From the IMG/VR virus record IMGVR_UViG_3300031994_000147: a DNA stretch of 51,627 nucleotides; one strand, written 5' to 3'. Source of the stretch: a virus. The position numbers were made by a program, and so were the translations under genes. The notes beneath the pieces are model-generated. The model did no database searches, had not been told where the DNA came from, and was given only the letters and a program-made list of their open reading frames with translations. Shown piece by piece: positions 7,517 to 51,109 of this stretch; positions within the stretch are counted from its first letter, which is position 1, and each line of letters opens with the position of its first letter.

Positions 7517-7549
7517 CCCCTTTCATTATAAGCATTATAACACAAAAAA

Positions 7550-7658
7550 TTGCAAAACGCAATATCTTTTTTGAAAAAATAAAAAAAAGTTGCAAAATGC
7601 TATTGACAAATCGAAAAATGTGTGGTATATTAGAAGCATAGAAAGTTGCAAAACGCAA
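7550..7658. promoter_or_regulatory. CI/Cro genetic switch: three TTGC-N5-GCAA operators and divergent promoters
   Basis: Operators TTGCAAAACGCAA (7550-7562), TTGCAAAATGCTA (7590-7602) and TTGCAAAACGCAA (7646-7658). Rightward TTGACA (7603-7608)-17-TATATT (7626-7631) with upstream TG. Leftward TTGCGT-17-TATAAT overlaps the 7550 operator. Confidence 0.8.
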
Positions 7659-7684
7659 CGCAAACAGAAAGGCAGGTGGTAATC

Positions 7685-9430: not shown

Positions 9431-9655
9431 ATGCCTGCTAAGAAGATCACACGTGCAGTGAAGATATGCAGAGCATTCAAGGCTGCACAGATAAGCAAAG
9501 GATATACTCAGGCAGATATTGCTAAACGGCTAGGAGTGAACAGATCGACCGTATCACGATGGTATCACAGTCCCGATGAGATGTCGGTCGGCAGCTTCCG
9601 CTTACTATGCACGGTACTAGCGATAGAGCCTGCGGATATCCTTGCGATAGAGTAA
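9431..9655 (+). CDS. XRE-type HTH protein, 74 aa
   Basis: YTQADIAKRLGVNRSTVSRWY. Confidence 0.7.
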   Translation: MPAKKITRAVKICRAFKAAQISKGYTQADIAKRLGVNRSTVSRWYHSPDEMSVGSFRLLCTVLAIEPADILAIE

Positions 9656-15162: not shown

Positions 15163-15660
15163 TTGGGCACGTTTATAGATTTGACAGGCGAAATATTCGG
15201 GTATCTAAGAGTTATCGACAGAGCAGAAAATCATAAGAAGCAGACAGTCTGGCGCTGTAAATGCCGATGTGGTAATGTGGTAAACGTTCAGACAGGGCAT
15301 TTGAGGGGCGGTAAGATCGTTAGCTGTGGCTGCTACAGAAAGAATAACAGCAAAGAAAGGGCAACGATACACGGCAAGAGGTACACCCGACTTTACCAGA
15401 CATGGTTATCCATGCGGCAGAGGTGTACAAACCCAAACAATAAAGATTATCCGCATTATGGTGGTCGAGGGATATCCATTTCCTCTAAGTGGAATAAGTT
15501 TAAGGATTTTGAGAAGTGGGCTCTGGCTAATGGTTACACGGACACATTGACTATTGAGCGAGTTGACGTAAACGGCAATTATTGCCCGGAAAACTGCACA
15601 TGGATCCCGAAATCCGAACAAGCCAAAAATACAACGAGAACATTAAACAATAAGAGGTAA
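15163..15660 (+). CDS. Homing-endonuclease-like / zinc-module DNA-binding protein, 165 aa (TTG start)
   Basis: N-terminal DLTGEIFGYLRV...WRCKCRCG...SCGC module shared with 21425..22138. The C-terminal YQTWLSMRQRCTNPNNKDYPHYGGRGI motif is common in free-standing phage genes. Confidence 0.55.
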   Translation: MGTFIDLTGEIFGYLRVIDRAENHKKQTVWRCKCRCGNVVNVQTGHLRGGKIVSCGCYRKNNSKERATIHGKRYTRLYQTWLSMRQRCTNPNNKDYPHYGGRGISISSKWNKFKDFEKWALANGYTDTLTIERVDVNGNYCPENCTWIPKSEQAKNTTRTLNNKR

Positions 15661-16552: not shown

Positions 16553-17053
16553 ATGAAGATAGGTAAAGGGATATTCTTCCGGGAAGAGAACTGGATGTGT
16601 TGGAGAGCTGAGGTTGACGGCTACGTATACTGCATTCAGGAAGTCAGGAACTTTGACCGTAACAAAGGGTACAAGATCGAGAAGCGGGACGGCGGTAACA
16701 CGTATGTGTACTACCTCACCAAGCACAAGAAAGGCTCTGAGGTAATTGAGGGCACACGTGCTCACGGACTGCGGAGAGCTATCATAGATGAGCTTAGGGC
16801 AGGCTCGGGTGTGTACAAGAACGAGGGTGACGATCAGTACTCGGTTCAGTGCGGAGAGGACACAAAGGTGTATACGTTCTGCCTGCATCAGATCGAGCGC
16901 GAAGGTGCCAAGCCGTGGGAGTACGACCCGGAAAAGACCGTGTGCATGATATGGCACAAATCTAAACCGATATCTGACTACTTCCCGACTTTGCGTGAGT
17001 GCCTTGCATACGGAGAAAATATGTTGTCCGATATGTTACCGAATAAACGGTAA
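16553..17053 (+). CDS. Hypothetical protein, 166 aa
   Basis: RBS AAGGAG upstream. Confidence 0.65.
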   Translation: MKIGKGIFFREENWMCWRAEVDGYVYCIQEVRNFDRNKGYKIEKRDGGNTYVYYLTKHKKGSEVIEGTRAHGLRRAIIDELRAGSGVYKNEGDDQYSVQCGEDTKVYTFCLHQIEREGAKPWEYDPEKTVCMIWHKSKPISDYFPTLRECLAYGENMLSDMLPNKR

Positions 17054-17069
17054 TAATAAACAAAAATAA

Positions 17070-17124
17070 TACCGATATTTCGGTAATAATGTCAATTGAT
17101 TATTACCGAAATATCGGATATAAT
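17070..17124 (+). promoter_or_regulatory. Second copy of the promoter/double-operator cassette: TTGATT(17096-17101)-17 bp-TATAAT(17119-17124)
   Basis: Palindromes TACCGATATTTCGGTA (17070-17085) and TACCGAAATATCGGAT (17104-17119). Collinear with 2077-2131. Confidence 0.7.
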
Positions 17125-21424: not shown

Positions 21425-22138
21425 TTGGCGCTCCCAAAACTCGACTTAACCGGGCGTGAATTCGGAGACCTGACAGTGTTACGCAAGGATACACCATACA
21501 GGACACCCGGTGGAACACCTTACGCAAGGTGGGTGTGCCGATGCAAATGTGGCAAGGTCAAAAGCATTCGGGCTACGCACCTCGTGAATGGTAGAACAAA
21601 ATCATGTGGATGTATGCGAAATGTGTACCTGTCTAAGCTGATAGGGAAAACAAACAGATTCGAGGTTTTAGGCGAGTGCACGAGGGTGTTCACGTCTAAC
21701 TCCGAAAGCTTTATCATTGACACCCGAGATATTGATGCAATCAAAGACCTGTATTGGAGTATTGATAGCACAGGCTACGTGGTCAATGTGAAAACTGGAA
21801 AACGGCTACACGCTTTTCTCATGAACTGCCCGCAGGGGCTGTGCGTAGACCACATATCCGGTGACAAGAAAGATAACAGAAGATGCAACCTCAGAATCTG
21901 TACATATCAGCAGAATAGCTGTAACAGGCACAAATCGCCGCGCAACAAAACTGGTGTGTTAGGAGTATACAAGAACGCAAGGGGTAAATACGTCGCCCAG
22001 ATAAGAGCTAACGGTTTCAGACATCATCTAGGCACATTTGCAACTCTCGAAGAAGCGACAAGTGTGAGACACAAAGCTGAGCAGATGTATTTCGGCGAGT
22101 TTGCGGGTCAGTTATTAAACCAGGAGGAGAAACGATGA
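21425..22138 (+). CDS. HNH homing endonuclease with AP2 DNA-binding domain and N-terminal CxC...CGC zinc module (TTG start)
   Basis: HNH_3-like VDHISGDKKDNRRCNLRICTYQQN. AP2-like TGVLGVYKNARGKYVAQIRANGFRHHLGTFATLEEA. The N-terminal DLTGREFGDLTV...WVCRCKCG...SCGC is paralogous to 15163..15660. Confidence 0.8.
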   Translation: MALPKLDLTGREFGDLTVLRKDTPYRTPGGTPYARWVCRCKCGKVKSIRATHLVNGRTKSCGCMRNVYLSKLIGKTNRFEVLGECTRVFTSNSESFIIDTRDIDAIKDLYWSIDSTGYVVNVKTGKRLHAFLMNCPQGLCVDHISGDKKDNRRCNLRICTYQQNSCNRHKSPRNKTGVLGVYKNARGKYVAQIRANGFRHHLGTFATLEEATSVRHKAEQMYFGEFAGQLLNQEEKR

Positions 22139-26244: not shown

Positions 26245-27616
26245 GCATTTTATTCCGCATAACTATCAGGCGTACTGTCGTGATCGGATAATCGATACAC
26301 CGAACATCGGACTGTTTCTCGAAATGGGTCTTGGCAAGACTGCTATAACACTCGATGCAGTGAAGCGGTTGAAGTATCATTACCTGCAAATTGTCAAGAC
26401 TTTAATCATAGCACCGAAGAAAGTAGCTGAATCCACATGGCACACAGAAGGAGCACAGTGGTTAGAGTTTTCTGAACTTCGCTTTTCCTTCGTCATGGGC
26501 ACTCAGGCTGAGCGCATAGCTGCACTCAATACTCCCGCGGACATCTACCTGATAAACCGCGAGAACACACAATGGCTTGTTGAGTATTATAAACACAAGT
26601 GGCCGTTTGACATGGTGGTTCTTGACGAATCGTCAAGCTTCAAGAATCATCAGGCTAAGCGGTTCAAAGCATTGAAGCTAGTCCGCAGCCGTATCAATCG
26701 CATGGTGCTCCTGACCGGTACGCCCTCACCGAAGTCCCTCATGGACTTATGGGCTCAGGTGTACTTACTGGACGGAGGGCAAAGGCTCGGCAGAACGATA
26801 ACCGCTTACCGTGATGCATACTTCGTACCCGACAAGCGGAACGGTCAGATAATTTACAGCTACGCTCTGAGGGATGGCGCAGACAAAGAGATCTACAAGC
26901 GGATATCTGATATCTGCATATCCATGAGGTCAGCCGATTATCTATCCTTGCCCGAGCTGATGTACAACGACATACCTGTCATGCTTGACAAGCCTGCTGC
27001 AGCAGCATACAAGAAGCTAGAGCATGATATGCTCATCGAGGTTGACGAAAGCACGATCACGGCGGGTACTGCTGCGGTGCTGACCAACAAGCTCCTGCAG
27101 CTGTGCAACGGTGCAGTGTATGACGAGGACGGCAAGGTGATAGAGCTGCAGTCCTGCAAGCTTGATGCACTCCTGGAGACCGTTGAGCAGCTCGGAGACG
27201 AACACGCGATTATCTGCTATAACTTCAAGCACGACAAGGACAGGCTCATGCAGGCGCTCTCGAAAACAGGTAAGCGCGTAGCTGTGTACGAGGGAGAACA
27301 GCAGAAGCAGGACTGGAACGATGGCAAGATTGACCTCATGCTTGTACAGCCTGCATCATGTGGCTACGGTCTGAACCTGCAGCGCGGAGGACATCACATC
27401 ATCTGGTTCGGTCTGACATGGAGCTTGGAGCTGTATCAGCAGACGAACAAGAGACTGCACAGGCAGGGGCAGACACACCCGGTTATCGTGCATCACCTGA
27501 TCGTCAAGGGCGGAGCTGACGAGGATGTTATAACAGCTCTTCACGCGAAAGACTTAACGCAGGAAGGACTTCTCAACGCCCTGAGGGTACGTCTGAGGGC
27601 TGCAAAGCAGGGATAA
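26231..27616 (+). CDS. SNF2/DEAD-like superfamily 2 helicase (GTG start)
   Basis: Motif I is LEMGLGKT, motif II VVLDESSSFKN, motif III LLTGTP and motif VI QQTNKRLHRQGQ. Confidence 0.9.
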   Translation: MSAAKHFIPHNYQAYCRDRIIDTPNIGLFLEMGLGKTAITLDAVKRLKYHYLQIVKTLIIAPKKVAESTWHTEGAQWLEFSELRFSFVMGTQAERIAALNTPADIYLINRENTQWLVEYYKHKWPFDMVVLDESSSFKNHQAKRFKALKLVRSRINRMVLLTGTPSPKSLMDLWAQVYLLDGGQRLGRTITAYRDAYFVPDKRNGQIIYSYALRDGADKEIYKRISDICISMRSADYLSLPELMYNDIPVMLDKPAAAAYKKLEHDMLIEVDESTITAGTAAVLTNKLLQLCNGAVYDEDGKVIELQSCKLDALLETVEQLGDEHAIICYNFKHDKDRLMQALSKTGKRVAVYEGEQQKQDWNDGKIDLMLVQPASCGYGLNLQRGGHHIIWFGLTWSLELYQQTNKRLHRQGQTHPVIVHHLIVKGGADEDVITALHAKDLTQEGLLNALRVRLRAAKQG

Positions 27617-27628
27617 TTAATACAAAAC

Positions 27629-27685
27629 ACACAACATCTTGTGGTTATTTTTGGCTATTTTGTCTTTAACCACAAGATGTTGTGT
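27629..27685. repeat. Perfect 18-bp inverted repeat with 21-nt spacer (operator and/or terminator hairpin)
   Basis: ACACAACATCTTGTGGTT (27629-27646) and AACCACAAGATGTTGTGT (27668-27685). A third, 15/18-matching copy AACCACAACATCTGGTGT lies at 27700-27717. Confidence 0.85.
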
Positions 27686-27693
27686 ATTACCCC

Positions 27694-27722
27694 TTGACAA
27701 ACCACAACATCTGGTGTATAAT
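27694..27722 (+). promoter_or_regulatory. Consensus sigma-70/SigA-type late-operon promoter TTGACA-17 bp-TATAAT
   Basis: TTGACA at 27694-27699, a 17-nt spacer and TATAAT at 27717-27722. The spacer is itself a copy of the 18-bp repeat arm. Confidence 0.75.
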
Positions 27723-28019
27723 ATACGCAAGTAGATACAACAGGCGGTAGGCGCATCGAGTATGCCTCCGGCTTGATGTTGCCGGACAATGCCGCCATTG
27801 TACTACGACTTGTGTTTCATTCTCATGGGGCTCGGGCAGCAGGTTTTGACCATTTACTGCTGTTCTGGCATTTAATTCTCCTTTCTACCTTCTTGCACCC
27901 GCTGTATTCAGCAGCGGCAGCGGGTGCATATCACCTAGCAGGACAGCAGCACATCATGTGCGGCTCAGTTCGATTCTGAGCAGGGTGTTCAAAACAACGA
28001 CACTAACGGAGGGCTAACG
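27723..28019 (+). ncRNA. About 300-nt non-coding, highly structured leader of the late operon (candidate cis-regulatory RNA)
   Basis: No RBS-preceded ORF. Predicted helices: GGCGG(27743)/CCGCC(27792) enclosing CCGGC/GCCGG. GCAGCAG(27836)/CTGCTGT(27857). GCACCCGCTG(27895)/CAGCGGGTGC(27918) with an alternative CAGCGG partner. GCACA/TGTGC(27949-27961). T-arm-like GCTCAG-TTCGATT-CTGAGC(27963-27981). Confidence 0.45.
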
Positions 28020-28394
28020 ATGGAAAACAGAAAGCTGATACGCATTCAGACAGAAAACAACCTCAACGAGGTCTACGCAGTAGACGAGCCCGGTGCGGGT
28101 AATGCAAGTCATGAGTACTTGGTGTTACTGCCTACGGACGAACCCGATGTAGCAATACCTGTTGAGATAGCTTTCCAGAATGGACCGAGGAAAGACCCCA
28201 ACAGCATTTCGGGTGTACTGGACACTGATCTGTTGGAGATCGTCCGCGACAGGCTCAAAGGTTTCCAGAGCGGCGAGTTCGCCTGCCGTGAAAATGCTTG
28301 TGCTCTTACCCACATCGAAGAAGCGCTCATGTGGATGAACAAGCGCGTAACTGACAGAGCACAGCGCGGGGTGCTCGGTACCAACAACAAGTGA
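28020..28394 (+). CDS. Conserved phage protein of unknown function, first late gene, 124 aa
   Basis: RBS ACGGAGGG. The FQNGP...GVLDTDLLEIVRDRLKGFQSGEFACRENACALTHIEEALMWMNKRVTDRAQRGVLGT pattern recurs next to terminase genes in many phages. Confidence 0.7.
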   Translation: MENRKLIRIQTENNLNEVYAVDEPGAGNASHEYLVLLPTDEPDVAIPVEIAFQNGPRKDPNSISGVLDTDLLEIVRDRLKGFQSGEFACRENACALTHIEEALMWMNKRVTDRAQRGVLGTNNK

Positions 28395-28489
28395 TACACC
28401 GACAGAACTAACAACGATAAACGGCTATTCAAGCTCGGACACGATGAGAAGCTACGGCGGTCAAGCCTTAATCGAGGGCTCATTCCTAC

Positions 28490-28512
28490 CGACTGCGGGA
28501 ATAGTCGTTTTT
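28490..28512 (+). terminator. Weak hairpin plus T5 between the first late gene and terS (attenuator candidate)
   Basis: CGACT-GCGGGAAT-AGTCG followed by TTTTT. Confidence 0.3.
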
Positions 28513-28572
28513 CAGACACACGGCAGCAAGCCCCCAGTATCAGCATAACGCTAAAGCAAGGAGGTGTATAGC

Positions 28573-32954: not shown

Positions 32955-33028
32955 GGACTGATAGCTCAATTGGTTAGAGCACTGACCTTATAAGTCAGAG
33001 GTTAGAGGTTCGATTCCTCTTCGGTCTA
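32955..33028 (+). tRNA. tRNA-Ile with anticodon UAU (reads AUA)
   Basis: Hand-folded cloverleaf: acceptor GGACTGA/TCGGTCT (two G-U pairs), U8, D arm GCTC-AATTGGTTA-GAGC, anticodon arm CTGAC-CTTATAA-GTCAG, variable loop AGGTT, T arm AGAGG-TTCGATT-CCTCT, discriminator A. CCA is not encoded. Confidence 0.8.
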
Positions 33029-33117
33029 CTATTGGCAGCTATGAGCCTTAACATAGCAGATATCAGGTCATGGCAACGACCTAAAACGCCTAACGATATT
33101 ACAAGGAGGTATTCCGC

Positions 33118-35916: not shown

Positions 35917-36396
35917 ATGCCTAACTGGACTATCTCAGGTAAGGCGGCGTTCGTCAAAGGCATGGTGCAGGTCGATATCAACGTTGATCTCTCCGCATAT
36001 CCTGAAAGGTTCGCCAGAGCTCAACAGCGGCTCGGTGAAGCGGTTCTCGTGAGCAGTAAGGTGTTTATGCCGCTGCTTACCGGAAGCCTGCAGCAACGCT
36101 CCTACGTTGACGATGGCGGACGTAAAGTTGTGTTCCCGGGTCCGTATGGTAGATATCAGTACGGCGGTCGGGTAATGGTCGATTCGGTGACAGGCAAAGG
36201 CCCGGCACTGATACATGACCGTAACGGCGTAGAGATCGGTTTACGTTTCCGCAAAGGTGCAACTCTTGTACCTACGGAAAGGCGGCTGAACTATTCACAG
36301 CCTACGGCTCAGGCAGAGTGGTTTCAACCCGCAAAAGACAAAGACCTCCCTGCATGGGTGGCGGAATGTGACAGAATAATAAAGGGTGGTGCATAA
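35917..36396 (+). CDS. Minor capsid / head-tail joining protein, 159 aa
   Basis: Synteny, and ATG immediately after the upstream stop. Confidence 0.5.
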   Translation: MPNWTISGKAAFVKGMVQVDINVDLSAYPERFARAQQRLGEAVLVSSKVFMPLLTGSLQQRSYVDDGGRKVVFPGPYGRYQYGGRVMVDSVTGKGPALIHDRNGVEIGLRFRKGATLVPTERRLNYSQPTAQAEWFQPAKDKDLPAWVAECDRIIKGGA

Positions 36397-36893
36397 TGGC
36401 ACAAAGACCAATAGATGTTCAGGGCTCGGAGATAATCAGCACGGCGCTCATGGAGCTGATTAACGAATTTCCTGCACTGAATGGTAAAAAGATAAAGTTC
36501 TCGACCCTAGAGGATAAGTCAGGGCTCGGCTTCTTCCCGACAAGCGGAGCTGCGATACTTTCAAGGAAAGAGAGTATAACAGGTCATGTGAGACTTGAAT
36601 GCGCGTACCCTTTCAATGTCATATACAGGGCTGCTGTGAAAAGTGAGACACAGAAGCTCGCGGTCAAGGAGTTCCTTGATACCCTCGGAAAGTGGCTCGA
36701 AAAACAGCCTATTGTGGTCAGCGGTTCCGTAGTACAGCTGCACGACTACCCAGAGCTTGACGAGGGACGAATAATCACAAACATAGCACGCAGTACTCCC
36801 GCACACTGCAACGCTGCATATCAGGACGGCGTTGAGGACTGGCTTGTATCAATCCTTGTGCGGTACAAATATGAGTACGACACTAACCAGTAA
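36396..36893 (+). CDS. Minor capsid / tail completion protein, 165 aa
   Basis: Synteny, and TAATG start/stop overlap. Confidence 0.5.
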   Translation: MAQRPIDVQGSEIISTALMELINEFPALNGKKIKFSTLEDKSGLGFFPTSGAAILSRKESITGHVRLECAYPFNVIYRAAVKSETQKLAVKEFLDTLGKWLEKQPIVVSGSVVQLHDYPELDEGRIITNIARSTPAHCNAAYQDGVEDWLVSILVRYKYEYDTNQ

Positions 36894-36920
36894 TAACAGT
36901 TATAAAGCGAGGTATAGCCC

Positions 36921-37463
36921 ATGTATAACAAAATCGAGCGCAAATACCTTGCGCACTATATAGATGAAGGTTTCGGAGCTAAGCAGTATGCATGGCTCGG
37001 TGATGATCTTGAAGAGTATTCAGACGAGCTCAATGCTGACGTAGAGTTCGAGACCAACATACTTGGTGAACAGAACATCAGACACAGCGGGTATGACACT
37101 GAGGGAGACGTAGACCCCTACTATGCGGAATACGGCAGCCTGCTCTTTGTCAACCTCTCAACCATAGCGAACCGCAGAATTAAAGGTGATGCTTGTAACA
37201 CCACTAAGATTGATGTGCTCCTCAGGGAAGATATGTCAACAGTGTGGGCGTACCGTGAGGACGTTACGGTAATACCTAGTTCTGTGGGTGGTGATACCTC
37301 AGGCATACAGATACCATTCGGTATTTACAGCAGAGGTAACCGCGTGAAAGGTATATTCGATGTCAGCACCAAGACCTTCACGCCTATCAATACGGTATAT
37401 GCACTTGACGGTGCTGTACTGATTGATAACAATACAGCATTCGCAGATCACGTTATCGTGTAA
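36921..37463 (+). CDS. Major tail (tube) protein paralogue 1, 180 aa
   Basis: Position upstream of the chaperones and tape measure gene. Clearly homologous to 37485..37970 (KIERKYLAHY.DE...LGDDLEEY.(D/E)ELN.DVE...DVDPYYA...WAYREDV...GGDTSG.QIPF). Confidence 0.6.
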   Translation: MYNKIERKYLAHYIDEGFGAKQYAWLGDDLEEYSDELNADVEFETNILGEQNIRHSGYDTEGDVDPYYAEYGSLLFVNLSTIANRRIKGDACNTTKIDVLLREDMSTVWAYREDVTVIPSSVGGDTSGIQIPFGIYSRGNRVKGIFDVSTKTFTPINTVYALDGAVLIDNNTAFADHVIV

Positions 37464-37484
37464 AGTGAAAAGGAGTGGTAATCA

Positions 37485-37970
37485 ATGGCAGATAAGATAG
37501 AGCGTAAATACCTTGCGCACTACGTTGACGAAACATTTAACGGCGAGACACCCGCCTATACCAGACTGGGTGACGATCTGGAAGAGTACAACGAGGAGCT
37601 TAACCCCGATGTAGAGATCAAGAAGAACATTAAGGGCGAACAGTCCATAGACCACAAGGGCTATGAGGTTCAGTCCGATGTGGATCCTTACTATGCTACT
37701 GAGGGTAGTGCTCTGTGGGAAAAGCTTGCAGAGATCGCTAACGAGAGAAAGACAGGCGCGGCTTGCAAGACTACCAAGATCGATGTACTGTATGACACAA
37801 CAGGTACTGTTGTATGGGCATATCGTGAGGATGTTGCACTGATACCTAAGTCTATCGGTGGTGACACTTCCGGTGTTCAGATTCCGTTCTCTGTATACAA
37901 TCTCGGTAACAGAGTATCCGGTTCTTTCAACCCCTCAACAGGCACATTTACTCCCACCTCAGGCAACTAA
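37485..37970 (+). CDS. Major tail (tube) protein paralogue 2, 161 aa
   Basis: As for 36921..37463. RBS AAAGGAG. Confidence 0.65.
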   Translation: MADKIERKYLAHYVDETFNGETPAYTRLGDDLEEYNEELNPDVEIKKNIKGEQSIDHKGYEVQSDVDPYYATEGSALWEKLAEIANERKTGAACKTTKIDVLYDTTGTVVWAYREDVALIPKSIGGDTSGVQIPFSVYNLGNRVSGSFNPSTGTFTPTSGN

Positions 37971-37990
37971 GCCGGAGGGAGCAAGCCAGA

Positions 37991-38030
37991 CAGTAACCAA
38001 TAGTAACCAATAGTAACCAATAGTAACTAA
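37991..38030. repeat. Tandem 10-bp repeat (C/T)AGTAACCAA x3 plus a degenerate fourth unit TAGTAACTAA
   Basis: CAGTAACCAA TAGTAACCAA TAGTAACCAA TAGTAACTAA, in the intergenic region. Confidence 0.9.
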
Positions 38031-38061
38031 TAATTGATAATTATGACGGAGGCTAGTTATT

Positions 38062-38577
38062 ATGAACGCTATCACCAAAACCAATGAAATAAACACAAAT
38101 GCAGCAGCTCTCAATATCACAGTAGACGATGGTATGAGGGCTATTCCTATAACTAATACACTCGGTACTGAGATAGGCAAGTTCTATTTCAGACCTACGG
38201 ATATAGGCATAATCGACAGATACAATGAGATCATCGAGAAAGTGCCCGATGTTTTCAAACCTCTCGAAAACATCAACATCAATGCAGATGGTACAGCAGA
38301 TTCAGACATTGAGATGCAGACCTTGAAGGAATGCGAAAGCAAGCTGTATGAGCTGTGCGACTATCTGTTCAACGGTAATCTTTCCGAAGCTTTCTTCGGC
38401 AGTATGCACCCATTCTCTCCCCTTGACAGCGGTATGTTCTACTGTGAAAACGCACTTGACAGCGTAGGCAAGTTCATAGCTGCACAGTTCCAGAGAAGCG
38501 TTAAGGGCGTTGAGAAGCGCATAAGCGGTTATACTAAGGGCTACAAGTCAGCACCCGGTAAGCACAGAAAGGCTTGA
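38062..38577 (+). CDS. Tail assembly chaperone candidate, 171 aa
   Basis: Position two genes upstream of the tape measure gene. Confidence 0.5.
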   Translation: MNAITKTNEINTNAAALNITVDDGMRAIPITNTLGTEIGKFYFRPTDIGIIDRYNEIIEKVPDVFKPLENININADGTADSDIEMQTLKECESKLYELCDYLFNGNLSEAFFGSMHPFSPLDSGMFYCENALDSVGKFIAAQFQRSVKGVEKRISGYTKGYKSAPGKHRKA

Positions 38578-38583
38578 TAAGCT

Positions 38584-39153
38584 ATGATAGGTGAGCTTCC
38601 GAGAAGCTTAGTCGTCAATGGTGAGGAATGGGATATCAGGACACACTTCGCAGATATCCTGAAAATTATCGTTGCTTTCAACGACCCGAATATTGATAAC
38701 GCAGAGAAGATATACATCTGCCTGCACATCCTCTATGAGGGCTTTGACGAAATGCCCGAGAGCGACTACGAAGCGGCTTTTAAGGCCGCATTGGAGTTCA
38801 TTGACTGCGGTATGCCAGAGGGCAAGAAAAAGCCCGGAAGTGCACGCACAATGGACTGGGAGCAGGACGAGAGTATCTTGTTTCCTGCTATCAACAAGAT
38901 AGCGGGATTCGAGACAAGGTCGGTTGAATACCTTCACTGGTGGACGTTCATGGGCTACTTCATGGAGATATCAACAGACGGTGTGTTCGGCTCTGTACTG
39001 CGGCTCAGGCAGAAGAAAAAGAACCGCAAAACCCCTCTCGATAAGACCGAGAAGGAGTTCTGGAATGCGAACCGCGAGCTGTGCGAGATCAAGCCAAAAC
39101 TCTCCGAAGAAGAAAAGGCTGCTAAGGAAAGATTGAAAAATATGCTTAGATAA
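38584..39153 (+). CDS. Gp15-like tail assembly protein, 189 aa
   Basis: The N-terminal ...LPRSLVVNGEEWDIRTHFADILKII..F.D pattern resembles the Bacteriophage Gp15 family. Lies directly before the tape measure gene. Confidence 0.55.
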   Translation: MIGELPRSLVVNGEEWDIRTHFADILKIIVAFNDPNIDNAEKIYICLHILYEGFDEMPESDYEAAFKAALEFIDCGMPEGKKKPGSARTMDWEQDESILFPAINKIAGFETRSVEYLHWWTFMGYFMEISTDGVFGSVLRLRQKKKNRKTPLDKTEKEFWNANRELCEIKPKLSEEEKAAKERLKNMLR

Positions 39154-39169
39154 GAAATGAGGTGTAATC

Positions 39170-42100
39170 ATGGCGGATAGTGGATATTCTGACGGTTCGG
39201 TAGTTGTCAGCACAGACCTTGACACTCAGGGCTTTGAAGCAGGCTCAGACCGAATGAAGAATGCCATCGATTCATCTATGAACGAGTTTCAGAAGCTGGG
39301 CGACACACTTCAAGGTGCTATGAATCAGGGTGTACAAGCTGTACAAGAGGGTGCACCACTGATTGATAAGGCACTCTCCGAGAGTGTAACATCTTTCCAG
39401 ACAAGCTCAGAGGATATTCAGAACTGGATATCTAAATGGGCAGATGCTATCCCCGAGAAGAAGTTTGAATCAAGTATCGGAGCTATCCAGAAGATGCTTG
39501 ACACCCTCGAGGGTAAAATGACAGATGTGTCAAGAGCATACGACAACGCATCAAGCGGCGGCGCTAAGGACATATCAAAGTTTGAAACGAAAGCAAATGC
39601 TGCCGAAAGCAGTCTTGACAAGCTCGGTGCTAAGATAGAGGAAGTCTACGGAGCAGGCGTTAAGTCCAAGAGCGGCGAGATAGTCCGTGCTAAGGATAAC
39701 GACAGTCTGAAACTGCTGATATCCCGATATGATGACCTGCAAGCTTCCTTACAGCGTATGCAGACCGAGATCATCAGGGTAAAGTCCGAGACCGAGAAAG
39801 CTAAGGCGGCTGAAACTGCTGCGATCGCTCAGGCGAAAGCTCAGACAGAAGCGGCAAGGGCAAGCACTAAACAGCTCGCAGCCGAGAATAAGCAGGCATG
39901 GCAGACCGTCAAGCAGGATATAAGAAGCGCTGAAAGTGAAACGAAAGCTTTCAACAGCGCTTACAACTCAATAGGTACAAGCATTCGTACACTTGAAAAT
40001 AAGATATACGGACTTGAACCCGCAGCTAAGAAAGCTATGGGCGGCAGTGAAAGCGCTGTTGATAGCTTTGAATTCAAAGTAGCTAATGTTCAGCGGCAGA
40101 TACAGTACTTGCGTGAGCGGCTTGAAACGTTCGGCAGTACACGAGTAACAACCGATGAATACGACACACTTAACCAGAGCCTTGAAGCGGCTAGGGCTAA
40201 GCTGAATGACCTCTTAGCGGCAAGAGATAAGATGCTCGCTCAGGGTACGGACAGGACTTCTGAGGAATGGCGCAAGACTGAACAGGCAATTACAGCTGCA
40301 CAACAGAAGCTGCAGCAGTATGAAGCACAGAAGGCTACAATGGAAACTGCGGGAACTGATAGAGTTGACGGTACAGATACGACAGCTTATCAGGAGACTG
40401 CAAGCCAGATACAGCAGCTCGAACAGAGGGTAGCTGAGTATGAGAACAAGGTATCTCGTGCGAACGGCAGAACACGTATTCTGTCAGCTACACTCAAAGG
40501 CATGGCTAAGGTGGGCGTTACCACTTTCAAGCTCCTGGGCAGGAGCATAGCGGCAGCGACAAGCAACATGAAGGCTTTCGGCAAGTCCTCAAACGGCTCC
40601 ATGCAGGCCGTGAAGAAGCTCACGAAGGTGTTTACTTCCTTCGGTACTCGAATCAAGAGTATGCTCAAACGTAGGTTTATATCGGCTCTGTTCTCAGGAG
40701 CGGTAGACGGTATCAAGAACCTCTCGCAGGTCTCACCCGAACTTAACGCTTCAATGTCTGCTATGATGACGGCGCTTGCACAGCTGAAAAACAGTTTTGC
40801 AACAGCTTTCGCGCCTATCATCACTGTGGTATCTCCGATACTGACAACGTTGATAAATCTGCTGTCAGATGCGTTTACAAAGATAGGTATGCTCGTAGCT
40901 GCACTCTCGGGTGCAAGCTCCTTCAAGAAGGCAGTCACAGTCCAGAAAGACTACGCGGCATCACTAAAGGAAACGTCAAAAGCGGCAGACAAAGCCAATA
41001 AGTCAGTAGCGGGCTTCGATGAACTGAACAACACATCATCGGGCTCGGACAACTCAAACAATGCGGGAGATACGAACCCTGCTGATATGTTTGAGACGGT
41101 ACCGATCGACAGCAAGATAAAGAGCATAGCTGATAAGATCAAGAACGCTTTCAAGAATGGCGACTTTGAGGGAATCGGTGAAGCGATAGCAAATAAATTC
41201 AACAGCATAGTCCAGAAAATCAATTCTGCTATCAGTTGGGACAACGTAGGCCCGAAGATAACCGCTTTCGCGAACGGACTTACAAGGACATTCAACTCGA
41301 TAGTTGATAACGTGAACTGGACACTGATAGGTGATACGGTAGCTCAGGGCGTTAACACGATAGTCAACACAATAAACCTGTTAGTCACAGGCATTAACTG
41401 GGCGAACCTCGGCAAGTCCCTCATGGACGGACTGAACGGCTTCATTCATGGAGTTAACTGGGGTAAGCTTGGTAAGACTATCGGAACTATGTTCCAATCA
41501 GCTCTCAGCTTCATACACTCCGTAGTTCATAACTTCGACTTCAAGAGCCTTGCAAAGGGCATAGGCAGTTCAGTCAACAACGCATTCGCAGCTGTGGACT
41601 GGAGTATGCTCGGTGAGACACTCTCAACGGCAGTAAAGAACGCTTTCGACTTTGTTTCTGAAACGTTCAAGTCCATTGACTTCTCACAGATAGGCGCGGA
41701 TATCGCGAAGTTCATCAACAATATTGACTGGGTAGGCGTAATTAAGAGCCTGACTTCCATGCTCAGCAATATCCTCTCCGGTGCACTGAACCTCATCACA
41801 GGATTTGTAGGCACTCTGGACTGGGGTAAGCTTGCAAGTAGTGTGCTGAACGGTCTGGTCGGTATGCTTACAAGCATTGACTGGGGCGGCCTTATCGCTA
41901 AGGCATTCGAGCTCTTAGGCGGTGCAATAGGCGGTGCTGTATCACTTCTCGGCTCATTCTTCTTAACCTTGTGGGAGGGCGTTAAAACTGCATGGTTTGC
42001 CGTTGAAGGCTACTTCTCCGAACAGATCAAGGAAGCAGGCGGCAACATCTGGGAAGGTGTTTTGACTGGTATAGTTGAGGGCTTAGCTTCGATAGGCTCT

Positions 42101-43351
42101 TGGATAGTAACGAACATCTTCGACCCCTTTATCAACGGCTTCAAGGCGGCATTCGGTATACACTCTCCGTCAACAGTCATGGCGGAAATGGGCGGCTTCC
42201 TGATAGCAGGCTTGAAAAACGGCATTTCTGCCGCATGGGGCTCTATCAAGTCATTCTTCACAAACGCTTGGAACAGCATCAAGTCGGTATGTACAAGCGC
42301 ATGGAACGGCATCAAGTCGGCTTGTTCAACAGCATGGAATGCGGTTACAAGCAAAATAAAGGAATCAGCTTCACAGATAAAGGCTGCGATCTCCGAGAAG
42401 TTCTCGGCTGCTAAGGATGCGGTAGTCGAAAAGGTATCAAGCATCAAACAGAAGGTCTCCGAGGGCTTCACAAACGCTTGGAACACGATCTCCTCTAAGA
42501 TGTCAAGTATCAAGACTTCGGTATCGAACGGATTCAGCAACGTATACTCAACCGTAACAAGCAAGATCAGCAGCATTAAGTCGAGCATTTCAAACGGATT
42601 CAGCTCCATGAAGTCCACAGTATCAAATGCTGTGTCGGGTATCTGGTCATCAGTTTCAGGCACATTCTCAAACCTCGTTTCCAACGCTTGGACATGGGGC
42701 GCGGATATATGTGATAACATGGCTAACGGTATTCGTAACATGGCAGGCAGTGTATGGGATTCGGTAAGCTCCCTCGCAGGAGATATCAGAGACTACCTCG
42801 GATTCTCCGAACCTGAGAAGGGTCCTCTGAGTAACTTCCACACCTATATGCCTGATATGTTGGAGCTCATGGCTGAGGGTATCAACAAGAACAAGAGCAT
42901 AGCTCTTAACGCCGTATCAGACCTCGCACAGGGTATCTCCGATGAAGCGCAGGACACTAGCGTACTTATCCCGATAAACGCGGACAACAAGTACACAGGT
43001 TTCCTTGACAACTTCTCAGATAAGATAACAGATGCGTTCACGGACATGATTGAGCGGCTTGAAGCTATCGCGGGTAATGTGACGTTCTCCGTTCCTGCTG
43101 TGGCTGCGGGTAGCGTGGTACCTTACAAGCTCGCACAGTATGACAACTCCGATTCAAGCGGAACTGACAGTTCCGTTAATATAGCGGCAATCACTGACCG
43201 CTTAGATGCGGTAGTAAACAGGCTTGGTGATGTTGTAGATGCAATCGACAACAAAGAGACAGGCATATCAGACGATGCGATATACAGCAGCGTGAAAATT
43301 AGTGCTCGTAAAGAGCAGAAATCGACAGGCAGAAATCCCTTTACAGTATAA
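39170..43351 (+). CDS. Tape measure protein, 1393 aa
   Basis: Length, coiled-coil N-terminus, central hydrophobic/Gly-rich segments, Ser-rich repeats, and position. Confidence 0.9.
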   Translation: MADSGYSDGSVVVSTDLDTQGFEAGSDRMKNAIDSSMNEFQKLGDTLQGAMNQGVQAVQEGAPLIDKALSESVTSFQTSSEDIQNWISKWADAIPEKKFESSIGAIQKMLDTLEGKMTDVSRAYDNASSGGAKDISKFETKANAAESSLDKLGAKIEEVYGAGVKSKSGEIVRAKDNDSLKLLISRYDDLQASLQRMQTEIIRVKSETEKAKAAETAAIAQAKAQTEAARASTKQLAAENKQAWQTVKQDIRSAESETKAFNSAYNSIGTSIRTLENKIYGLEPAAKKAMGGSESAVDSFEFKVANVQRQIQYLRERLETFGSTRVTTDEYDTLNQSLEAARAKLNDLLAARDKMLAQGTDRTSEEWRKTEQAITAAQQKLQQYEAQKATMETAGTDRVDGTDTTAYQETASQIQQLEQRVAEYENKVSRANGRTRILSATLKGMAKVGVTTFKLLGRSIAAATSNMKAFGKSSNGSMQAVKKLTKVFTSFGTRIKSMLKRRFISALFSGAVDGIKNLSQVSPELNASMSAMMTALAQLKNSFATAFAPIITVVSPILTTLINLLSDAFTKIGMLVAALSGASSFKKAVTVQKDYAASLKETSKAADKANKSVAGFDELNNTSSGSDNSNNAGDTNPADMFETVPIDSKIKSIADKIKNAFKNGDFEGIGEAIANKFNSIVQKINSAISWDNVGPKITAFANGLTRTFNSIVDNVNWTLIGDTVAQGVNTIVNTINLLVTGINWANLGKSLMDGLNGFIHGVNWGKLGKTIGTMFQSALSFIHSVVHNFDFKSLAKGIGSSVNNAFAAVDWSMLGETLSTAVKNAFDFVSETFKSIDFSQIGADIAKFINNIDWVGVIKSLTSMLSNILSGALNLITGFVGTLDWGKLASSVLNGLVGMLTSIDWGGLIAKAFELLGGAIGGAVSLLGSFFLTLWEGVKTAWFAVEGYFSEQIKEAGGNIWEGVLTGIVEGLASIGSWIVTNIFDPFINGFKAAFGIHSPSTVMAEMGGFLIAGLKNGISAAWGSIKSFFTNAWNSIKSVCTSAWNGIKSACSTAWNAVTSKIKESASQIKAAISEKFSAAKDAVVEKVSSIKQKVSEGFTNAWNTISSKMSSIKTSVSNGFSNVYSTVTSKISSIKSSISNGFSSMKSTVSNAVSGIWSSVSGTFSNLVSNAWTWGADICDNMANGIRNMAGSVWDSVSSLAGDIRDYLGFSEPEKGPLSNFHTYMPDMLELMAEGINKNKSIALNAVSDLAQGISDEAQDTSVLIPINADNKYTGFLDNFSDKITDAFTDMIERLEAIAGNVTFSVPAVAAGSVVPYKLAQYDNSDSSGTDSSVNIAAITDRLDAVVNRLGDVVDAIDNKETGISDDAIYSSVKISARKEQKSTGRNPFTV

Positions 43352-43368
43352 GACAGGAGTGATTGAGT

Positions 43369-43791
43369 ATGAGCAACTTTAGGGGCTATCTGGTAAAAGC
43401 CTACAACGGAACTATCCTCGATCAGTACTTAGCTGCAGAGGGATTTAAATGCACCCCTGACCAAAGGCAGGATAAGGATTCGTACCGAGACGGTTACGGC
43501 ATACTTCACAGAAATGTTCTGCCGGGGGTGACTTCAACACTTGAATTAACGACACTTGACGGCTTGAACGTTGACCAGGTAGCGGCATTCAAAGAAGCTA
43601 TCGAGAGCGGCATCATCAACAGTATGGAGCGTAAACTCACGCTCACATACTGGAATGATGAACGAATGGCCTACTGCACAGATACGTTCTATATGCCCGA
43701 TATGACGTTCACATACAGCCGTATACAGGATAACACCCTGATATACAAATCAACGACATTCAAATTCATAGGGTACGGTGAGCAGCGATGA
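43369..43791 (+). CDS. Tail component (possible distal tail protein), 140 aa
   Basis: Position directly after the tape measure gene. RBS AGGAG before the ATG at 43369. Confidence 0.45.
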   Translation: MSNFRGYLVKAYNGTILDQYLAAEGFKCTPDQRQDKDSYRDGYGILHRNVLPGVTSTLELTTLDGLNVDQVAAFKEAIESGIINSMERKLTLTYWNDERMAYCTDTFYMPDMTFTYSRIQDNTLIYKSTTFKFIGYGEQR

Positions 43792-47150: not shown

Positions 47151-47176
47151 TTAATGATTCAAGGGAGGAATCTTTA

Positions 47177-48214: not shown

Positions 48215-48263
48215 TACCGACAGGATATAGGATAGATACCCCACACTCACAGGAGGTGAGCAT

Positions 48264-48482: not shown

Positions 48483-48484
48483 CT

Positions 48485-51105: not shown

Positions 51106-51109
51106 GCTA

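What the first reader, a model, noticed from the sequence alone, without database searches (positions are those of the whole stretch)
27629..28019. Late operon controlled by a consensus promoter inside an 18-bp repeat system, followed by a ~300-nt structured non-coding leader
Directly after the SNF2 gene there is a perfect 18-bp inverted repeat (27629-27646 / 27668-27685, 21-nt spacer). A textbook TTGACA-17-TATAAT promoter (27694-27722) follows, and its 17-nt spacer is itself a 15/18 copy of the repeat arm. The first late gene starts only at 28020. The intervening ~300 nt has no credible ORF but stacks GC-rich helices. One hairpin has a 5' strand (CCCGCTG) that can pair with either of two tandem CAGCGG copies, giving mutually exclusive folds. 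At the 3' end sits a tRNA T-arm-like hairpin (GCTCAG-TTCGATT-CTGAGC). No sigma factor, RinA/ArpU-type activator or known antiterminator gene is recognisable in the genome. A strong promoter with a factor-binding element in its spacer and a long structured leader recalls lambda PR'/Q or HK022 put-type processive antitermination. The sequence elements here look unrelated to both, so this could be an undescribed late-gene switch or a new cis-acting or stand-alone phage RNA.
Basis: partly seen in the sequence, partly recalled or inferred. Interest (0 to 1): 0.7.

Follow-up and report, generated by a model that had tools for sequence, protein, structure and literature searches.

The report
Operator-gated phage RNA before anti-defence gene
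A rumen (Ruminococcus-type) temperate phage carries a strong, repressor-type-controlled promoter that makes a previously undescribed ~290-nt structured RNA ending in a tRNA-like cloverleaf, sitting directly in front of a Tad1 anti-immunity gene and the packaging genes; the RNA is real and conserved, but what it does is still open.

Summary
The 18-bp repeats are three helically phased, pseudo-palindromic sites. One lies in the spacer of the only 12/12 sigma-A promoter in 20-36 kb. Five related phage lineages (types A-E) keep this layout but changed all three sites in concert, the signature of a phage-specific DNA-binding regulator.

The 291-nt non-coding stretch is a genuine structured RNA family with no Rfam match. 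It has a 5'-terminal 76-nt hairpin, by far the most conserved part. CU-rich motifs follow that resemble the 16S rRNA 3' end. Stems covary.

New context changes the reading. The "first late gene" is a clear Tad1 anti-Thoeris/CBASS sponge. Relatives carry further anti-defence genes there, plus a terminator(-like) hairpin (canonical only in type C) between the RNA and tad1 that the window lacks.

The ORF is refuted and the CAGCGG "switch" is not conserved in all types. Function is unresolved between cis-acting leader or gate, released sRNA, and put-like antitermination. Distribution is narrow (rumen/gut phages).

The parts
27629..27646 (.). Site S1 (operator-like, pseudo-palindrome CACAA-N4-TTGTG); left arm of the perfect 18-bp inverted repeat
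   Evidence: It changes in concert with S2 and S3 in types B-E.
27668..27685 (.). Site S2, right arm of the inverted repeat; centre lies 41 bp from S1 and 16.5 bp upstream of the -35
27700..27717 (.). Site S3, a 15/18 copy of S2 filling the promoter spacer; centre lies 32 bp from S2
27694..27722 (+). Consensus sigma-A/sigma-70 promoter TTGACA-17-TATAAT; inferred transcription start about 27729-27730
   Evidence: only 12/12 match in 20-36 kb. It is kept in all five types, with the -10 lying 6-8 nt before the first helix.
27729..28019 (+). Non-coding structured RNA (leader of tad1 in this window)
   Evidence: no Rfam match
27731..27806 (+). P1: 5'-terminal extended hairpin and the most conserved domain. 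Its apex can also form a three-way junction at nearly the same energy.
27762..27770 (+). P1 apical loop AUGCCUCCG (anti-Shine-Dalgarno-like, complementary to the CGGAGG of the downstream RBS)
   Evidence: UGCCUCCGGCUU is invariant in types A-E
27830..27869 (+). P2 hairpin with conserved UGACC loop (types A and B; replaced by a larger multi-hairpin region in C-E)
27874..27889 (+). CU-rich single-stranded motif AAUUCUCCUUUCUACC (resembles the 16S rRNA 3' end; one or two copies in types A-D; degenerated to a U-rich loop in type E)
   Evidence: predicted partner of the RBS in types A and C1 (L113)
27894..27928 (+). P3 hairpin (UGCACCCGCUG/CAGCGGGUGCA) whose loop holds the tandem CAGCGG
   Evidence: helix 1: compensatory changes at two pairs
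27932..27987 (+). tRNA-like cloverleaf. Its parts are: acceptor-like stem CACCU/GGGUG; D-like arm 27938-27947; mini 'anticodon-like' hairpin 27949-27961; T-like arm 27963-27981 with loop UUCGAUU.
   Evidence: acceptor-like stem 3/5 and T-like arm 5/6 pairs with changes on both sides; not called as tRNA
28007..28013 (+). Ribosome-binding site CGGAGGG of tad1
   Evidence: CGGAGG is kept in all five types, including type E where the gene differs
28020..28394 (+). tad1 (Thoeris anti-defence 1 sponge), first gene after the RNA
   Evidence: PDB 7UAV/8KBx, E about 1e-35, full length; PF24729
28490..28517 (+). Weak terminator-like hairpin plus T5 between tad1 and the small-terminase gene
   Evidence: the region 28444-28548 translates identically in three type-A relatives (L081, L084, L085/L109), which is an amino-acid-level comparison

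Best explanation
This is one transcription unit at the early/late junction of a temperate Ruminococcus-type siphophage.

Promoter control. A phage-specific dimeric DNA-binding protein (not identified) binds three in-phase operators, S1, S2 and S3. S3 lies between the -35 and -10, so the protein shuts an otherwise maximal sigma-A promoter.

The transcript. When the promoter is free it makes a ~290-nt structured RNA that starts at the foot of a 76-nt hairpin (P1). CU-rich anti-SD-like stretches follow, and the RNA ends in a tRNA-like cloverleaf. Ancestrally, and still in types B, C and D, the RNA is followed by a terminator(-like) hairpin placed just before the tad1 ribosome-binding site. Most transcripts would then end as a free RNA, and read-through would deliver Tad1, further anti-defence genes and the packaging/late genes. 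In the window (type A) that terminator is missing. The RNA is therefore simply the 5' leader of the tad1-terminase-portal mRNA.

My committed mechanism is that the RNA acts in cis:
- The 5'-terminal hairpin protects the transcript.
- The CU-rich/CCUCC elements mask the CGGAGG ribosome-binding site.
- The cloverleaf is a processing mark (an RNase P-type cut after the conserved UAU, just 5' of the acceptor-like stem) that separates the RNA from the mRNA and sets expression of the sponge.

Shown: the elements, their conservation and covariation, the concerted operator change, the Tad1 identity, and the terminator in relatives.
Inferred: repression, the transcription start, RBS masking, processing, and any timing.
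For: Operators:
- The core motif occurs only at this locus.
- Each site is pseudo-palindromic.
- Five lineages changed S1, S2 and S3 together while keeping spacings of 31-32 bp and 41-43 bp (32 in type D), that is 3 and 4 helical turns (sequences).
- The same 'palindrome in the spacer plus phased upstream copies' design recurs in this genome with a different palindrome, at 17037-17124 and 2041-2131.
- The cI/cro operators are a third, unrelated motif.

RNA:
- Thirteen distinct A-D leaders plus the diverged type E (L128).
- On an un-fitted MAFFT alignment of the 3' half, 93.5% of cells pair and 12 pairs change on both sides. Slid controls reach at most 52%.
- For P1, 93.9% pair, 4 pairs change on both sides, and slid controls reach at most 57% (rung table).
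- G-U-dependent stability favours the + strand.
- P1 begins 6-8 nt after the -10 in every type.
- Independent MFE folds of types A, C and D give the same cloverleaf; type B lacks the anticodon-like arm.
- UAU precedes the acceptor-like stem in types A-D.

Context:
- Tad1 identity.
- Sequestin, an ADP-ribosyltransferase-like gene and DUF4417 lie downstream in relatives.
- Terminator GAGAGGGCGGCA-N4-UGCCGCCUUUUC + U-run in type C, with homologous hairpins in B and D.
- No consensus -35/-10 is evident by eye between that hairpin and tad1.
- The RBS is predicted mostly paired in A, B, C1 (L113) and E; its partner is the CU-rich motif in A and C1 only, the acceptor-like 5' strand in B and a U-rich loop in E.
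Against: - No regulator has been identified. No HTH gene lies in the unit in the window (tad1 is followed by terS).
- The RBS partner predicted by folding differs between types (in C2/L117 it is an unrelated upstream segment), and the RBS is open in type D.
- The T-loop sequence is not conserved in type D (CGCAACC) and varies within type C.
- Neither ARAGORN nor the Rfam tRNA model scores the domain, so RNase P recognition is only an analogy.
- Type E keeps P1 but has a different 3' half with no clear cloverleaf. Whatever P1 does therefore does not need the cloverleaf.
- P1 is far more conserved in sequence than a mere 5' stabiliser needs to be. This hints at a specific partner that this explanation does not name.
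- Type C has its own strong terminator, which fits a free-standing RNA gene equally well.
- There are no expression data.
Confidence: 0.4

Rival explanations
1. Free-standing, trans-acting phage RNA (an 'RNA moron', possibly itself an anti-defence or host-takeover factor). It would be a strongly transcribed ncRNA gene with its own promoter and, ancestrally, its own terminator, inserted in front of the pre-existing terminator that precedes tad1 in this phage group. The CU-rich/CCUCC motifs would be seed regions that pair with Shine-Dalgarno regions of target mRNAs, as in Firmicutes C-rich sRNAs. Alternatively the 16S-3'-end-like and tRNA-like parts would act as decoys. The cloverleaf would give stability or release from read-through transcripts.
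For: - Type C has a textbook sRNA gene layout: a 12/12 promoter, an RNA starting with a stem, and a strong intrinsic terminator.
- Relatives lacking the RNA also have a terminator right before tad1. Some carry 'consensus promoter + small ORF' at the same spot, which looks like a moron insertion site.
- Multiple exposed anti-SD-like motifs are present, duplicated in types C and D.
- Type E keeps the promoter and the 5' two-thirds of the RNA in front of a different gene.
- The unit sits next to anti-defence genes.
Against: - In types A and E there is no terminator, so the RNA is necessarily part of the mRNA.
- Types B and D have poor U-tracts.
- tad1 in B-D has no promoter of its own, so read-through is required.
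- The conserved CGGAGG RBS complementary to the P1 loop suggests a cis relationship.
- No target has been identified.
Confidence: 0.28
2. One reading: a late-gene switch by processive antitermination. P1, which can fold as two adjacent hairpins, would act like HK022 put RNA, or as a nut-like site for a conserved factor. It would make RNA polymerase that starts at this promoter resistant to the terminator in front of tad1 and to later terminators, so that only transcripts from this promoter reach the late genes.
For: - The layout promoter - structured RNA - terminator - long co-directional late operon is found in types B-D.
- Type C has a second strong + strand terminator before terS.
- P1 is conserved in sequence across all types while the operators vary, as expected for a partner that is itself conserved, such as RNA polymerase.
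- P1 emerges first from the polymerase.
- No activator, sigma or Q gene was found among the tested ORFs.
- This is the only strong promoter ahead of the roughly 24-kb late block.
Against: - The window has no terminator after the RNA and no + strand terminator-like site in 36-51.6 kb, yet keeps the RNA.
- The RNA is four to five times larger than put and carries a cloverleaf with no role in this model.
- There is no sequence or model similarity to any antiterminator RNA in Rfam.
- An operator-repressed perfect promoter does not by itself give late timing.
Confidence: 0.17
3. Ligand- or factor-sensing riboswitch-like leader. The bistable P1 apex (extended hairpin versus three-way junction) would sense a small molecule or protein, most attractively an immune signal such as gcADPR or a cyclic oligonucleotide. 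It would set read-through or translation of the sponge genes.
For: - The two P1 folds lie within 1-3 kcal/mol of each other in the four types tested, A-D.
- Type D duplicates UUUGCC so that both partners are identical.
- The junction and loop sequences are invariant.
- The downstream genes bind exactly such signals.
Against: - No known aptamer matches.
- The terminator hairpin is too stable for the available competing pairings.
- The expression platform is not conserved: it is absent in A and E.
- Bistability on paper is common in GC-rich hairpins.
Confidence: 0.07
4. A DNA-level element rather than an RNA: a pac/cos or terminase-binding region, a replication origin, or an attP/tRNA-gene remnant.
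For: - The location is just upstream of the packaging genes.
- Repeats and GC-rich palindromes are present.
- There is a tRNA-3'-half-like sequence of the kind found in attP sites.
Against: - Substitutions preserve G-U pairs only on the + strand, and that strand folds 13 kcal/mol better.
- The integrase and cI lie 20 kb away.
- The terminase is of the headful type, with a MuF-like minor head protein.
- The element starts exactly at a promoter in all types.
Confidence: 0.03

Closest known systems
Anti-CRISPR operons controlled by Aca repressors (Aca1, Aca2, Aca10; e.g. PMC6765145, PMC9410906)
   Same: A very strong promoter drives an anti-defence gene inserted next to essential late genes. Inverted-repeat operators overlap the promoter, and different phages have different operator/regulator specificities.
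   Different: - No HTH (aca-like) gene lies in the unit here.
- There are three phased sites rather than two.
- A ~290-nt structured RNA lies between promoter and gene.
- The cargo is a Tad1 sponge rather than an Acr.
- Repression itself is untested.
Lambda PR'-qut-6S RNA-tR' late region with Q antiterminator (from established knowledge)
   Same: A strong promoter sits at the head of the late operon, with a factor site between the -35 and -10. A ~200-300-nt non-coding transcript ends at a terminator (in types B-D) just before the first late gene.
   Different: - No Q-like gene was found.
- The sites are three palindromes.
- No pause-inducing -10-like element was recognised.
- The RNA is conserved and covarying, unlike lambda 6S.
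- The window lacks the terminator.
HK022 put RNA and the Bacillus EAR element (cis-acting processive antitermination RNAs; from established knowledge)
   Same: A promoter-proximal structured RNA precedes terminators, with no dedicated protein gene recognisable. P1 can form two adjacent hairpins.
   Different: There is no sequence or model similarity. The RNA is much larger and has extra domains (CU-rich motifs, cloverleaf). The need for antitermination is not evident in the window.
P1/P7 C4 and P4 CI RNAs (Rfam C4, RF01695), cut out of operon leaders by RNase P; also MALAT1-mascRNA and gammaherpesvirus tRNA-like units as processing marks (from established knowledge)
   Same: A tRNA-like module embedded in a longer transcript could direct RNase P or RNase Z cleavage and so release an RNA from a phage leader.
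   Different: There is no match to the C4 model. The tRNA-like part here is a four-arm cloverleaf at the 3' end of the RNA. No complementary target sites were found, and cleavage is untested.
C-rich/CU-rich regulatory RNAs of Firmicutes (RsaE/RoxS, RNAIII type; from established knowledge)
   Same: Several exposed C/U-rich motifs are complementary to Shine-Dalgarno sequences.
   Different: There is no homology. This RNA is phage-encoded, much longer, and physically linked to the gene whose RBS it could mask.
Unnamed candidate structured RNAs catalogued from IMG/VR (PMC10690425)
   Same: That survey lists thousands of phage motifs, including tRNA-like ones and ones upstream of genes. Some IMG/VR contigs used here were in its source data.
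   Different: I could not check whether any of its models overlaps this RNA. No function or context of this kind is described in the text I read.

Membership tests
Tad1 (Thoeris anti-defence 1) for the downstream gene 28020-28394 | Full-length sequence similarity to structurally and functionally characterised Tad1 proteins, and the Pfam Acb2/Tad1 hairpin domain | tested here: met
   7UAV and 8KBG/8KBH, E about 1e-35, residues 4-124.: PF24729, 33.1 bits against a cut-off of 27.
tRNA (Rfam RF00005 / ARAGORN) | Cloverleaf with 7-bp acceptor stem, 7-nt anticodon loop, and a score above the model threshold | tested here: not met
   searches give no hit in 27500-28150 even at E<=10; searches give none in types C and D. 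The anticodon-like arm has a 3-4-nt loop in types A and C and is absent in B. The acceptor-like stem is 5-6 bp.
tRNA-like structure (functional mimic) | Four-way junction with an acceptor-like stem next to a T-like arm that has a 7-nt loop, maintained by compensatory change | tested here: met
   acceptor-like stem 3/5 and T-like arm 5/6 pairs changed on both sides; the D-like arm is kept in all four types.
tRNA-like structure (functional mimic) | Canonical T-loop sequence (UUCRANY) conserved, and recognition by RNase P or the CCA-adding enzyme | tested here: inconclusive
   The loop is UUCGAUU in A, B and C3, UUUGAUU in C1, CUUGAUU in C2 and CGCAACC in D. Enzyme recognition is not testable here.
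Lambda-type Q antitermination module | Q-family gene upstream of the late promoter | tested here: not met
   PHROGs and Pfam scans of about 50 window ORFs show no antiterminator. Very small or novel proteins cannot be excluded.
Lambda-type Q antitermination module | Terminator shortly downstream of the promoter that must be overcome | tested here: not met
   None lies between 27729 and 28020 in the window. One is present in relatives of types B, C and D.
HK022 put-type RNA | Two stem-loops acting in cis on RNA polymerase to suppress terminators without a phage protein | not testable with these tools
   The P1 apex can form two adjacent hairpins.
C4 / CI antisense RNA (RF01695) | Match to the covariance model, and complementary target sites downstream | tested here: not met
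   No C4 hit at E<=10. No extended complementarity was found beyond RBS-like motifs.
acr-aca-type autoregulated anti-defence operon | Strong promoter with overlapping inverted-repeat operators in front of an anti-defence gene | tested here: met
acr-aca-type autoregulated anti-defence operon | HTH regulator gene in the same operon | tested here: not met
   In the window tad1 is followed by terS-like gp165 and terL. The islands in relatives show DUF4417, Sequestin and ADPrib_exo_Tox but no HTH.
Known riboswitch or ribozyme classes (Rfam 15) | Covariance-model match | tested here: not met
   only chance-level miRNA or sRNA hits, on the inverted repeat.

The most novel reading that the evidence does not exclude
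The RNA is itself part of the phage's counter-defence. In one version it is a sensor: the bistable P1 junction reads an immune nucleotide signal or a defence protein and opens read-through or translation of the sponge genes only when needed. In the other it is an RNA decoy: its tRNA-like cloverleaf and 16S-3'-end-like CU motifs soak up an RNA-targeting defence effector. Either would be a new class of RNA-based anti-defence element, co-transcribed with Tad1.
Probability: 0.12. Interest if true: 0.9.

Novelty: new variant of a known kind. Interest (0 to 1): 0.6.

Why it matters
How anti-defence sponge genes such as tad1 are controlled is essentially undescribed. Here the gene sits behind a maximal promoter locked by a triple operator whose specificity has diversified five times. 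A conserved RNA with no known relatives lies between them.

If the RNA gates or times Tad1 and late-gene expression, it adds an RNA layer to the Aca-type logic known for anti-CRISPRs. If it works in trans or as a decoy or sensor, it would be a new RNA-based counter-defence.

It also offers a compact natural example of a tRNA-like module inside a bacterial-virus leader. An isolate host (Ruminococcus albus KH2T6) carries an almost identical prophage, so the questions are directly testable.

The narrow distribution, a handful of rumen/gut phage lineages, limits generality.

Tried and rejected
1. Known RNA families. Rfam at gathering and at E<=10 on the window and on types C and D gave only chance hairpin hits on the inverted repeat. 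ARAGORN found only the real tRNA-Ile at 32955.

2. GenBank phages. blastn found no match to 27560-28100.

3. Exact-pattern scans. Scans of IMG/VR, JGI metagenomes and GTDB genomes with P1 or T-arm words mostly returned the same few contigs or chance hits: L087, L088-L106 apart from L089/L098 (the already-known type-B and type-A contigs), L108 and L082. The productive route was Tad1 homologues followed by their contigs, plus one degenerate P1 pattern.

4. Coding potential of 27773-27979. Rejected. It has no PHROG hit, frameshifting indels occur in near-identical relatives, and it is not conserved in types B-E.

5. The CAGCGG 'two-partner' switch. The tandem copy is a conserved loop sequence in types A and C. 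It is absent in B, and the alternative helix is about 6 bp against 10-11 bp. It is not supported as a conserved switch.

6. A single conserved RBS-masking partner. Partition-function folding gives different partners in different types, and none in D.

7. cI as the operator-binding protein. The cI/cro operators are a different motif, and no S-type site lies there.

8. Identifying the regulator. Only weak leads emerged: HTH 9431-9655 is a marginal paralogue of HTH 1790-2005, and the IMG/VR scan was uninformative.

9. MAFFT alignment of P1. It was not structure-consistent at bulges, so a covariance model was used instead. That alignment is fitted to the model.

10. More distant P1 copies. None was found among 52 sources at E<=1.

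11. Simple hairpin competition as an antiterminator. Judged unlikely because the terminator stem is much more stable. This is an inference and was not computed exhaustively.
Full report
**1.

The sequence shows ACACAACATCTTGTGGTT at 27629-27646 and its exact reverse complement at 27668-27685. TTGACA (27694), a 17-nt spacer and TATAAT (27722) follow. The spacer, AACCACAACATCTGGTGT, matches the second arm at 15 of 18 positions.

The promoter is the only 12/12 match in 20-36 kb. The 15-bp core of the repeat occurs nowhere else in the 51.6-kb window: 9 matches at <=3 mismatches against 1.6 expected, and 0 of 100 shuffles reach that. The repeat finder reports three copies spaced 41 and 32 bp apart.

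The stretch from about 27729 to the ATG at 28020 folds to -104.6 kcal/mol (z = -3.2). Its complement folds to -91.1 (z = -1.5). This points to an RNA read from the + strand. The GCACCCGCTG/CAGCGGGTGC hairpin, the tandem CAGCGG and GCTCAG-TTCGATT-CTGAGC are all present.

**2. Context: the gene behind the leader is Tad1**

Upstream lie a primase-helicase, a VRR-NUC nuclease and the SNF2 helicase. Downstream lie a 124-aa protein, a small-terminase-like protein, TerL, portal and a MuF-like head protein.

The 124-aa protein is a full-length homologue of Thoeris anti-defence 1. It matches PDB 7UAV and 8KBx at E about 1e-35 and Pfam PF24729 above its cut-off. A weak hairpin plus T5 follows it at 28490.

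The integrase and an S24-type cI are 20 kb away, and the window begins with the lysis genes. It therefore looks like a complete, circularly opened temperate phage genome. Near-identical copies lie in Ruminococcus albus KH2T6 and in rumen MAGs.

**3. Relatives**

Exact-word scans were mostly unproductive. Following Tad1 homologues to their contigs, plus one degenerate P1 pattern, gave 13 distinct A-D leaders, plus the diverged type E.

| Type | Loci | Notes |
|---|---|---|
| A | window, L001-3, L005, L120, KH2T6 | no terminator hairpin before tad1 |
| B | L004, L110, L112 | lacks the anticodon-like arm; hairpin with poor U-tract |
| C | L113-119, L122, L127 | canonical intrinsic terminator before tad1 |
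| D | L125, L126 | most diverged of the tad1-linked types |
| E | L128 | P1 and middle region kept; different 3' half and first gene |

All sit directly after the SNF2 gene. The other tad1-bearing phages retrieved do not have the RNA; about 40 were scanned with the covariance model, which finds P1 only in the known loci. Those relatives instead have an intrinsic terminator and a conserved CTTATAC(T/C)C... stretch just before tad1. Some have 'consensus promoter + small ORF' at that spot.

**4. The repeats are operators**

In every type the promoter is kept, and three copies of a 14-bp pseudo-palindromic core are present. Two lie upstream as an inverted pair and one lies in the spacer. The core differs between types:

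| Type | 14-bp core |
|---|---|
| A | CACAACATCTTGTG |
| B | CACTAGATATGGGG |
| C | CACTACATATTGTG |
| D | CACTATATCTTGTG |
| E | CACTATATATTGTG |

All three copies change together. Centre-to-centre distances stay at 31-32 bp, and at 41-43 bp (32 in D), which is three and four helical turns.

That pattern is what a dimeric, cooperatively binding, phage-encoded protein with diverging specificity produces. A site between the -35 and -10 of an already perfect promoter implies repression. The same design, with another palindrome (TACCGAAAWWTCGGTA), controls two other promoters in this genome. The cI/cro operators are yet another motif.

The binding protein was not identified. No HTH gene lies in the unit, and candidates in the early region are only weak leads. 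In types C-E the S1/S2 hairpin is followed by T4, so it may also terminate the upstream operon.

**5. The RNA is real**

*P1 (27731-27806).* It begins 6-8 nt after the -10 in all types and is about 85% identical across types. UGCCUCCGGCUU, GGCGGUAGG and GCCGG are invariant. On a model-fitted alignment 93.9% of cells pair, four pairs change on both sides, and slid controls give at most 57% and at most one such pair. A rung-by-rung table shows the same. In the four types tested (A-D), its apex can fold in two ways that lie within 1-3 kcal/mol:
- an extended hairpin exposing AUGCCUCCG;
- a three-way junction that hides this sequence.

*Middle region.* Downstream come hairpins that differ in number between types. 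One or two CU-rich motifs resembling the 3' end of Firmicutes 16S rRNA follow in types A-D, for example GAUUCUCCUUUCU and, in D, ACCUCCUU; in type E they have degenerated to a U-rich loop.

*3' half.* This was tested on an un-fitted MAFFT alignment of 12 sequences. It gives 93.5% paired cells and 12 pairs with changes on both sides, against at most 52% for slid controls. The helices are:
- P3;
- a 5-6-bp acceptor-like stem (3 of 5 pairs compensatory);
- a 3-bp D-like arm, present in all four types;
- a short anticodon-like hairpin, absent in B;
- a T-like arm with a 7-nt loop (5 of 6 pairs compensatory).

Independent MFE folds of types A, C and D give the same cloverleaf; type B lacks the anticodon-like arm.

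*Limits of the tRNA analogy.* The T-loop is UUCGAUU only in A, B and one C variant. It is CGCAACC in D. No tRNA model scores the domain. Type E has a different 3' half.

No Rfam family matches any type. The 68-codon ORF is broken by single-base indels in near-identical relatives and is not conserved.

**6. What the relatives add**

In types B, C and D a conserved hairpin (AAGAGAGGGCGGC...GCCGCC) lies between the cloverleaf and the tad1 RBS. In type C it is a canonical intrinsic terminator with a U-run. In B and D the U-tract is poor. No consensus -35/-10 is evident by eye between it and tad1.

The window type lacks this hairpin. By parsimony this is a loss, which is an inference. The ancestral unit was therefore operators + promoter, then RNA, then terminator, then tad1.

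Downstream of tad1, relatives carry DUF4417, Sequestin (another anti-Thoeris sponge family), an ADP-ribosyltransferase-like gene and others before terS. The unit thus heads an anti-defence island at the start of the late block.

In the window the late block has no + strand terminator-like site between 36 and 51.6 kb, and this is the only strong promoter ahead of it.

**7. Mechanism**

Well supported (about 0.85): an operator-controlled sigma-A promoter transcribes a conserved, structured, non-coding RNA. In this phage that RNA is the 5' leader of the tad1-packaging mRNA.

Beyond that, I commit to a cis-acting leader (0.4). The 5'-terminal hairpin stabilises the transcript. The CU-rich/CCUCC elements mask the conserved CGGAGG RBS, which is predicted mostly paired in A, B, C1 (L113) and E; the partner is the CU-rich motif only in A and C1, and D is open. 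The cloverleaf, preceded in types A-D by UAU, marks a processing site.

Rivals:
- a free-standing trans-acting RNA, for which type C has a textbook sRNA gene layout (0.28);
- put-like processive antitermination, supported by the promoter-RNA-terminator layout and P1's sequence conservation, but weakened by the lack of terminators in the window (0.17);
- a riboswitch-like sensor (0.07);
- a DNA-level element (0.03).

**8. Comparison and novelty**

The unit works most like an Aca-controlled anti-CRISPR promoter combined with a lambda PR'/tR'- or put-like leader. It fails the membership tests for each of these: there is no aca-type gene in the operon, no Q gene, no terminator in the window and no model match.

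The RNA is not a tRNA, a C4/CI RNA or any Rfam family. I cannot exclude that part of it is among the unnamed IMG/VR candidate motifs of PMC10690425.

I rate it a new variant of a known kind: a regulated phage leader or sRNA unit built around a new RNA family. It is moderately to highly interesting because it links an RNA to anti-defence gene control and is testable in a cultured lysogen. Its narrow distribution and unknown function temper that.

Noticed in passing
window 17037-17124 and 2041-2131: A second operator class, the palindrome TACCGAAAWWTCGGTA, has the same design as the finding. One copy lies inside the spacer of a near-consensus promoter (TTGATT-17-TATAAT at 17096; TTGAAT-17-TATAAT at 2103), with phased copies upstream. 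There are 5 matches against 0.04 expected. A 71-aa HTH gene (1790-2005, minus strand) is divergent from the 2103 promoter and is a likely repressor.
   Followed up: partly
window 7545-7660: The cI/cro intergenic region carries three copies of TTGCAAAACGCAA-like operators around an 11/12 promoter (TTGACA-17-TATATT at 7603). The motif is unrelated to the S1-S3 sites.
   Followed up: partly
window 28395-28563: This is the 170-nt non-coding gap between tad1 and the terS-like gene. The 28444-28548 segment translates identically in three type-A relatives (L081, L084, L085/L109), even where the flanking genes are only 87-93% identical. It contains a weak hairpin plus T5 at 28490. It may be a remnant of the anti-defence island, or another regulatory or pac element.
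   Followed up: no
L113:2542-4752, L125:2845-4745, L117:3387-5489, L004:3375-4921: Relatives carry a variable gene island between tad1 and terS. It holds DUF4417 (in types B-E), Sequestin (PF21825), an ADPrib_exo_Tox-like protein, DUF6275 and a 306-308-aa protein. It looks like an anti-defence island under the same promoter.
   Followed up: partly
L117:4380-4540: A second promoter (TTGACT-17-TATAAT with TG) is followed after about 85 nt (a 13-codon ORF) by a very strong terminator (17-bp stem). It lies just before the 308-aa gene and terS: another 'promoter - short transcript - terminator' unit in front of late genes.
   Followed up: no
L006, L007, L008, L013, L025, L032, L039, L067 (about 60 nt before the tad1 start, locus position near 2940-3000): tad1 relatives without the RNA all have an intrinsic terminator followed by a conserved TTTTCTTATAC(T/C)CAAAAACAGAAAGGAAC stretch directly before tad1. 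This may be an activator-dependent late promoter (-10-like TATACT). L025, L032 and L039 also have perfect TTGACA-17-TATAAT promoters about 300 nt upstream, driving unrelated small ORFs.
   Followed up: no
window 32955-33029: A genuine tRNA-Ile (anticodon UAU) gene lies inside the late operon, between the MuF-like gene and the next head gene. The late transcript therefore needs tRNA-processing enzymes anyway.
   Followed up: no
window 36000-51627: All 13 terminator-like hits in the tail and lysis region are on the minus strand and none is on the coding strand. A strong + strand terminator (15-bp stem) at 1216-1249 closes the late block after the endolysin.
   Followed up: no
L121:840-1474: In one more distant relative the tad1 gene lies next to a HicA/HicB toxin-antitoxin pair and directly before the tail tape-measure gene. 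tad1 therefore moves between positions in these phages.
   Followed up: no
window 15163-15660 and 21425-22138: Two HNH endonuclease genes of the same PHROG (374) lie in the early region. They may be homing-type insertions.
   Followed up: no
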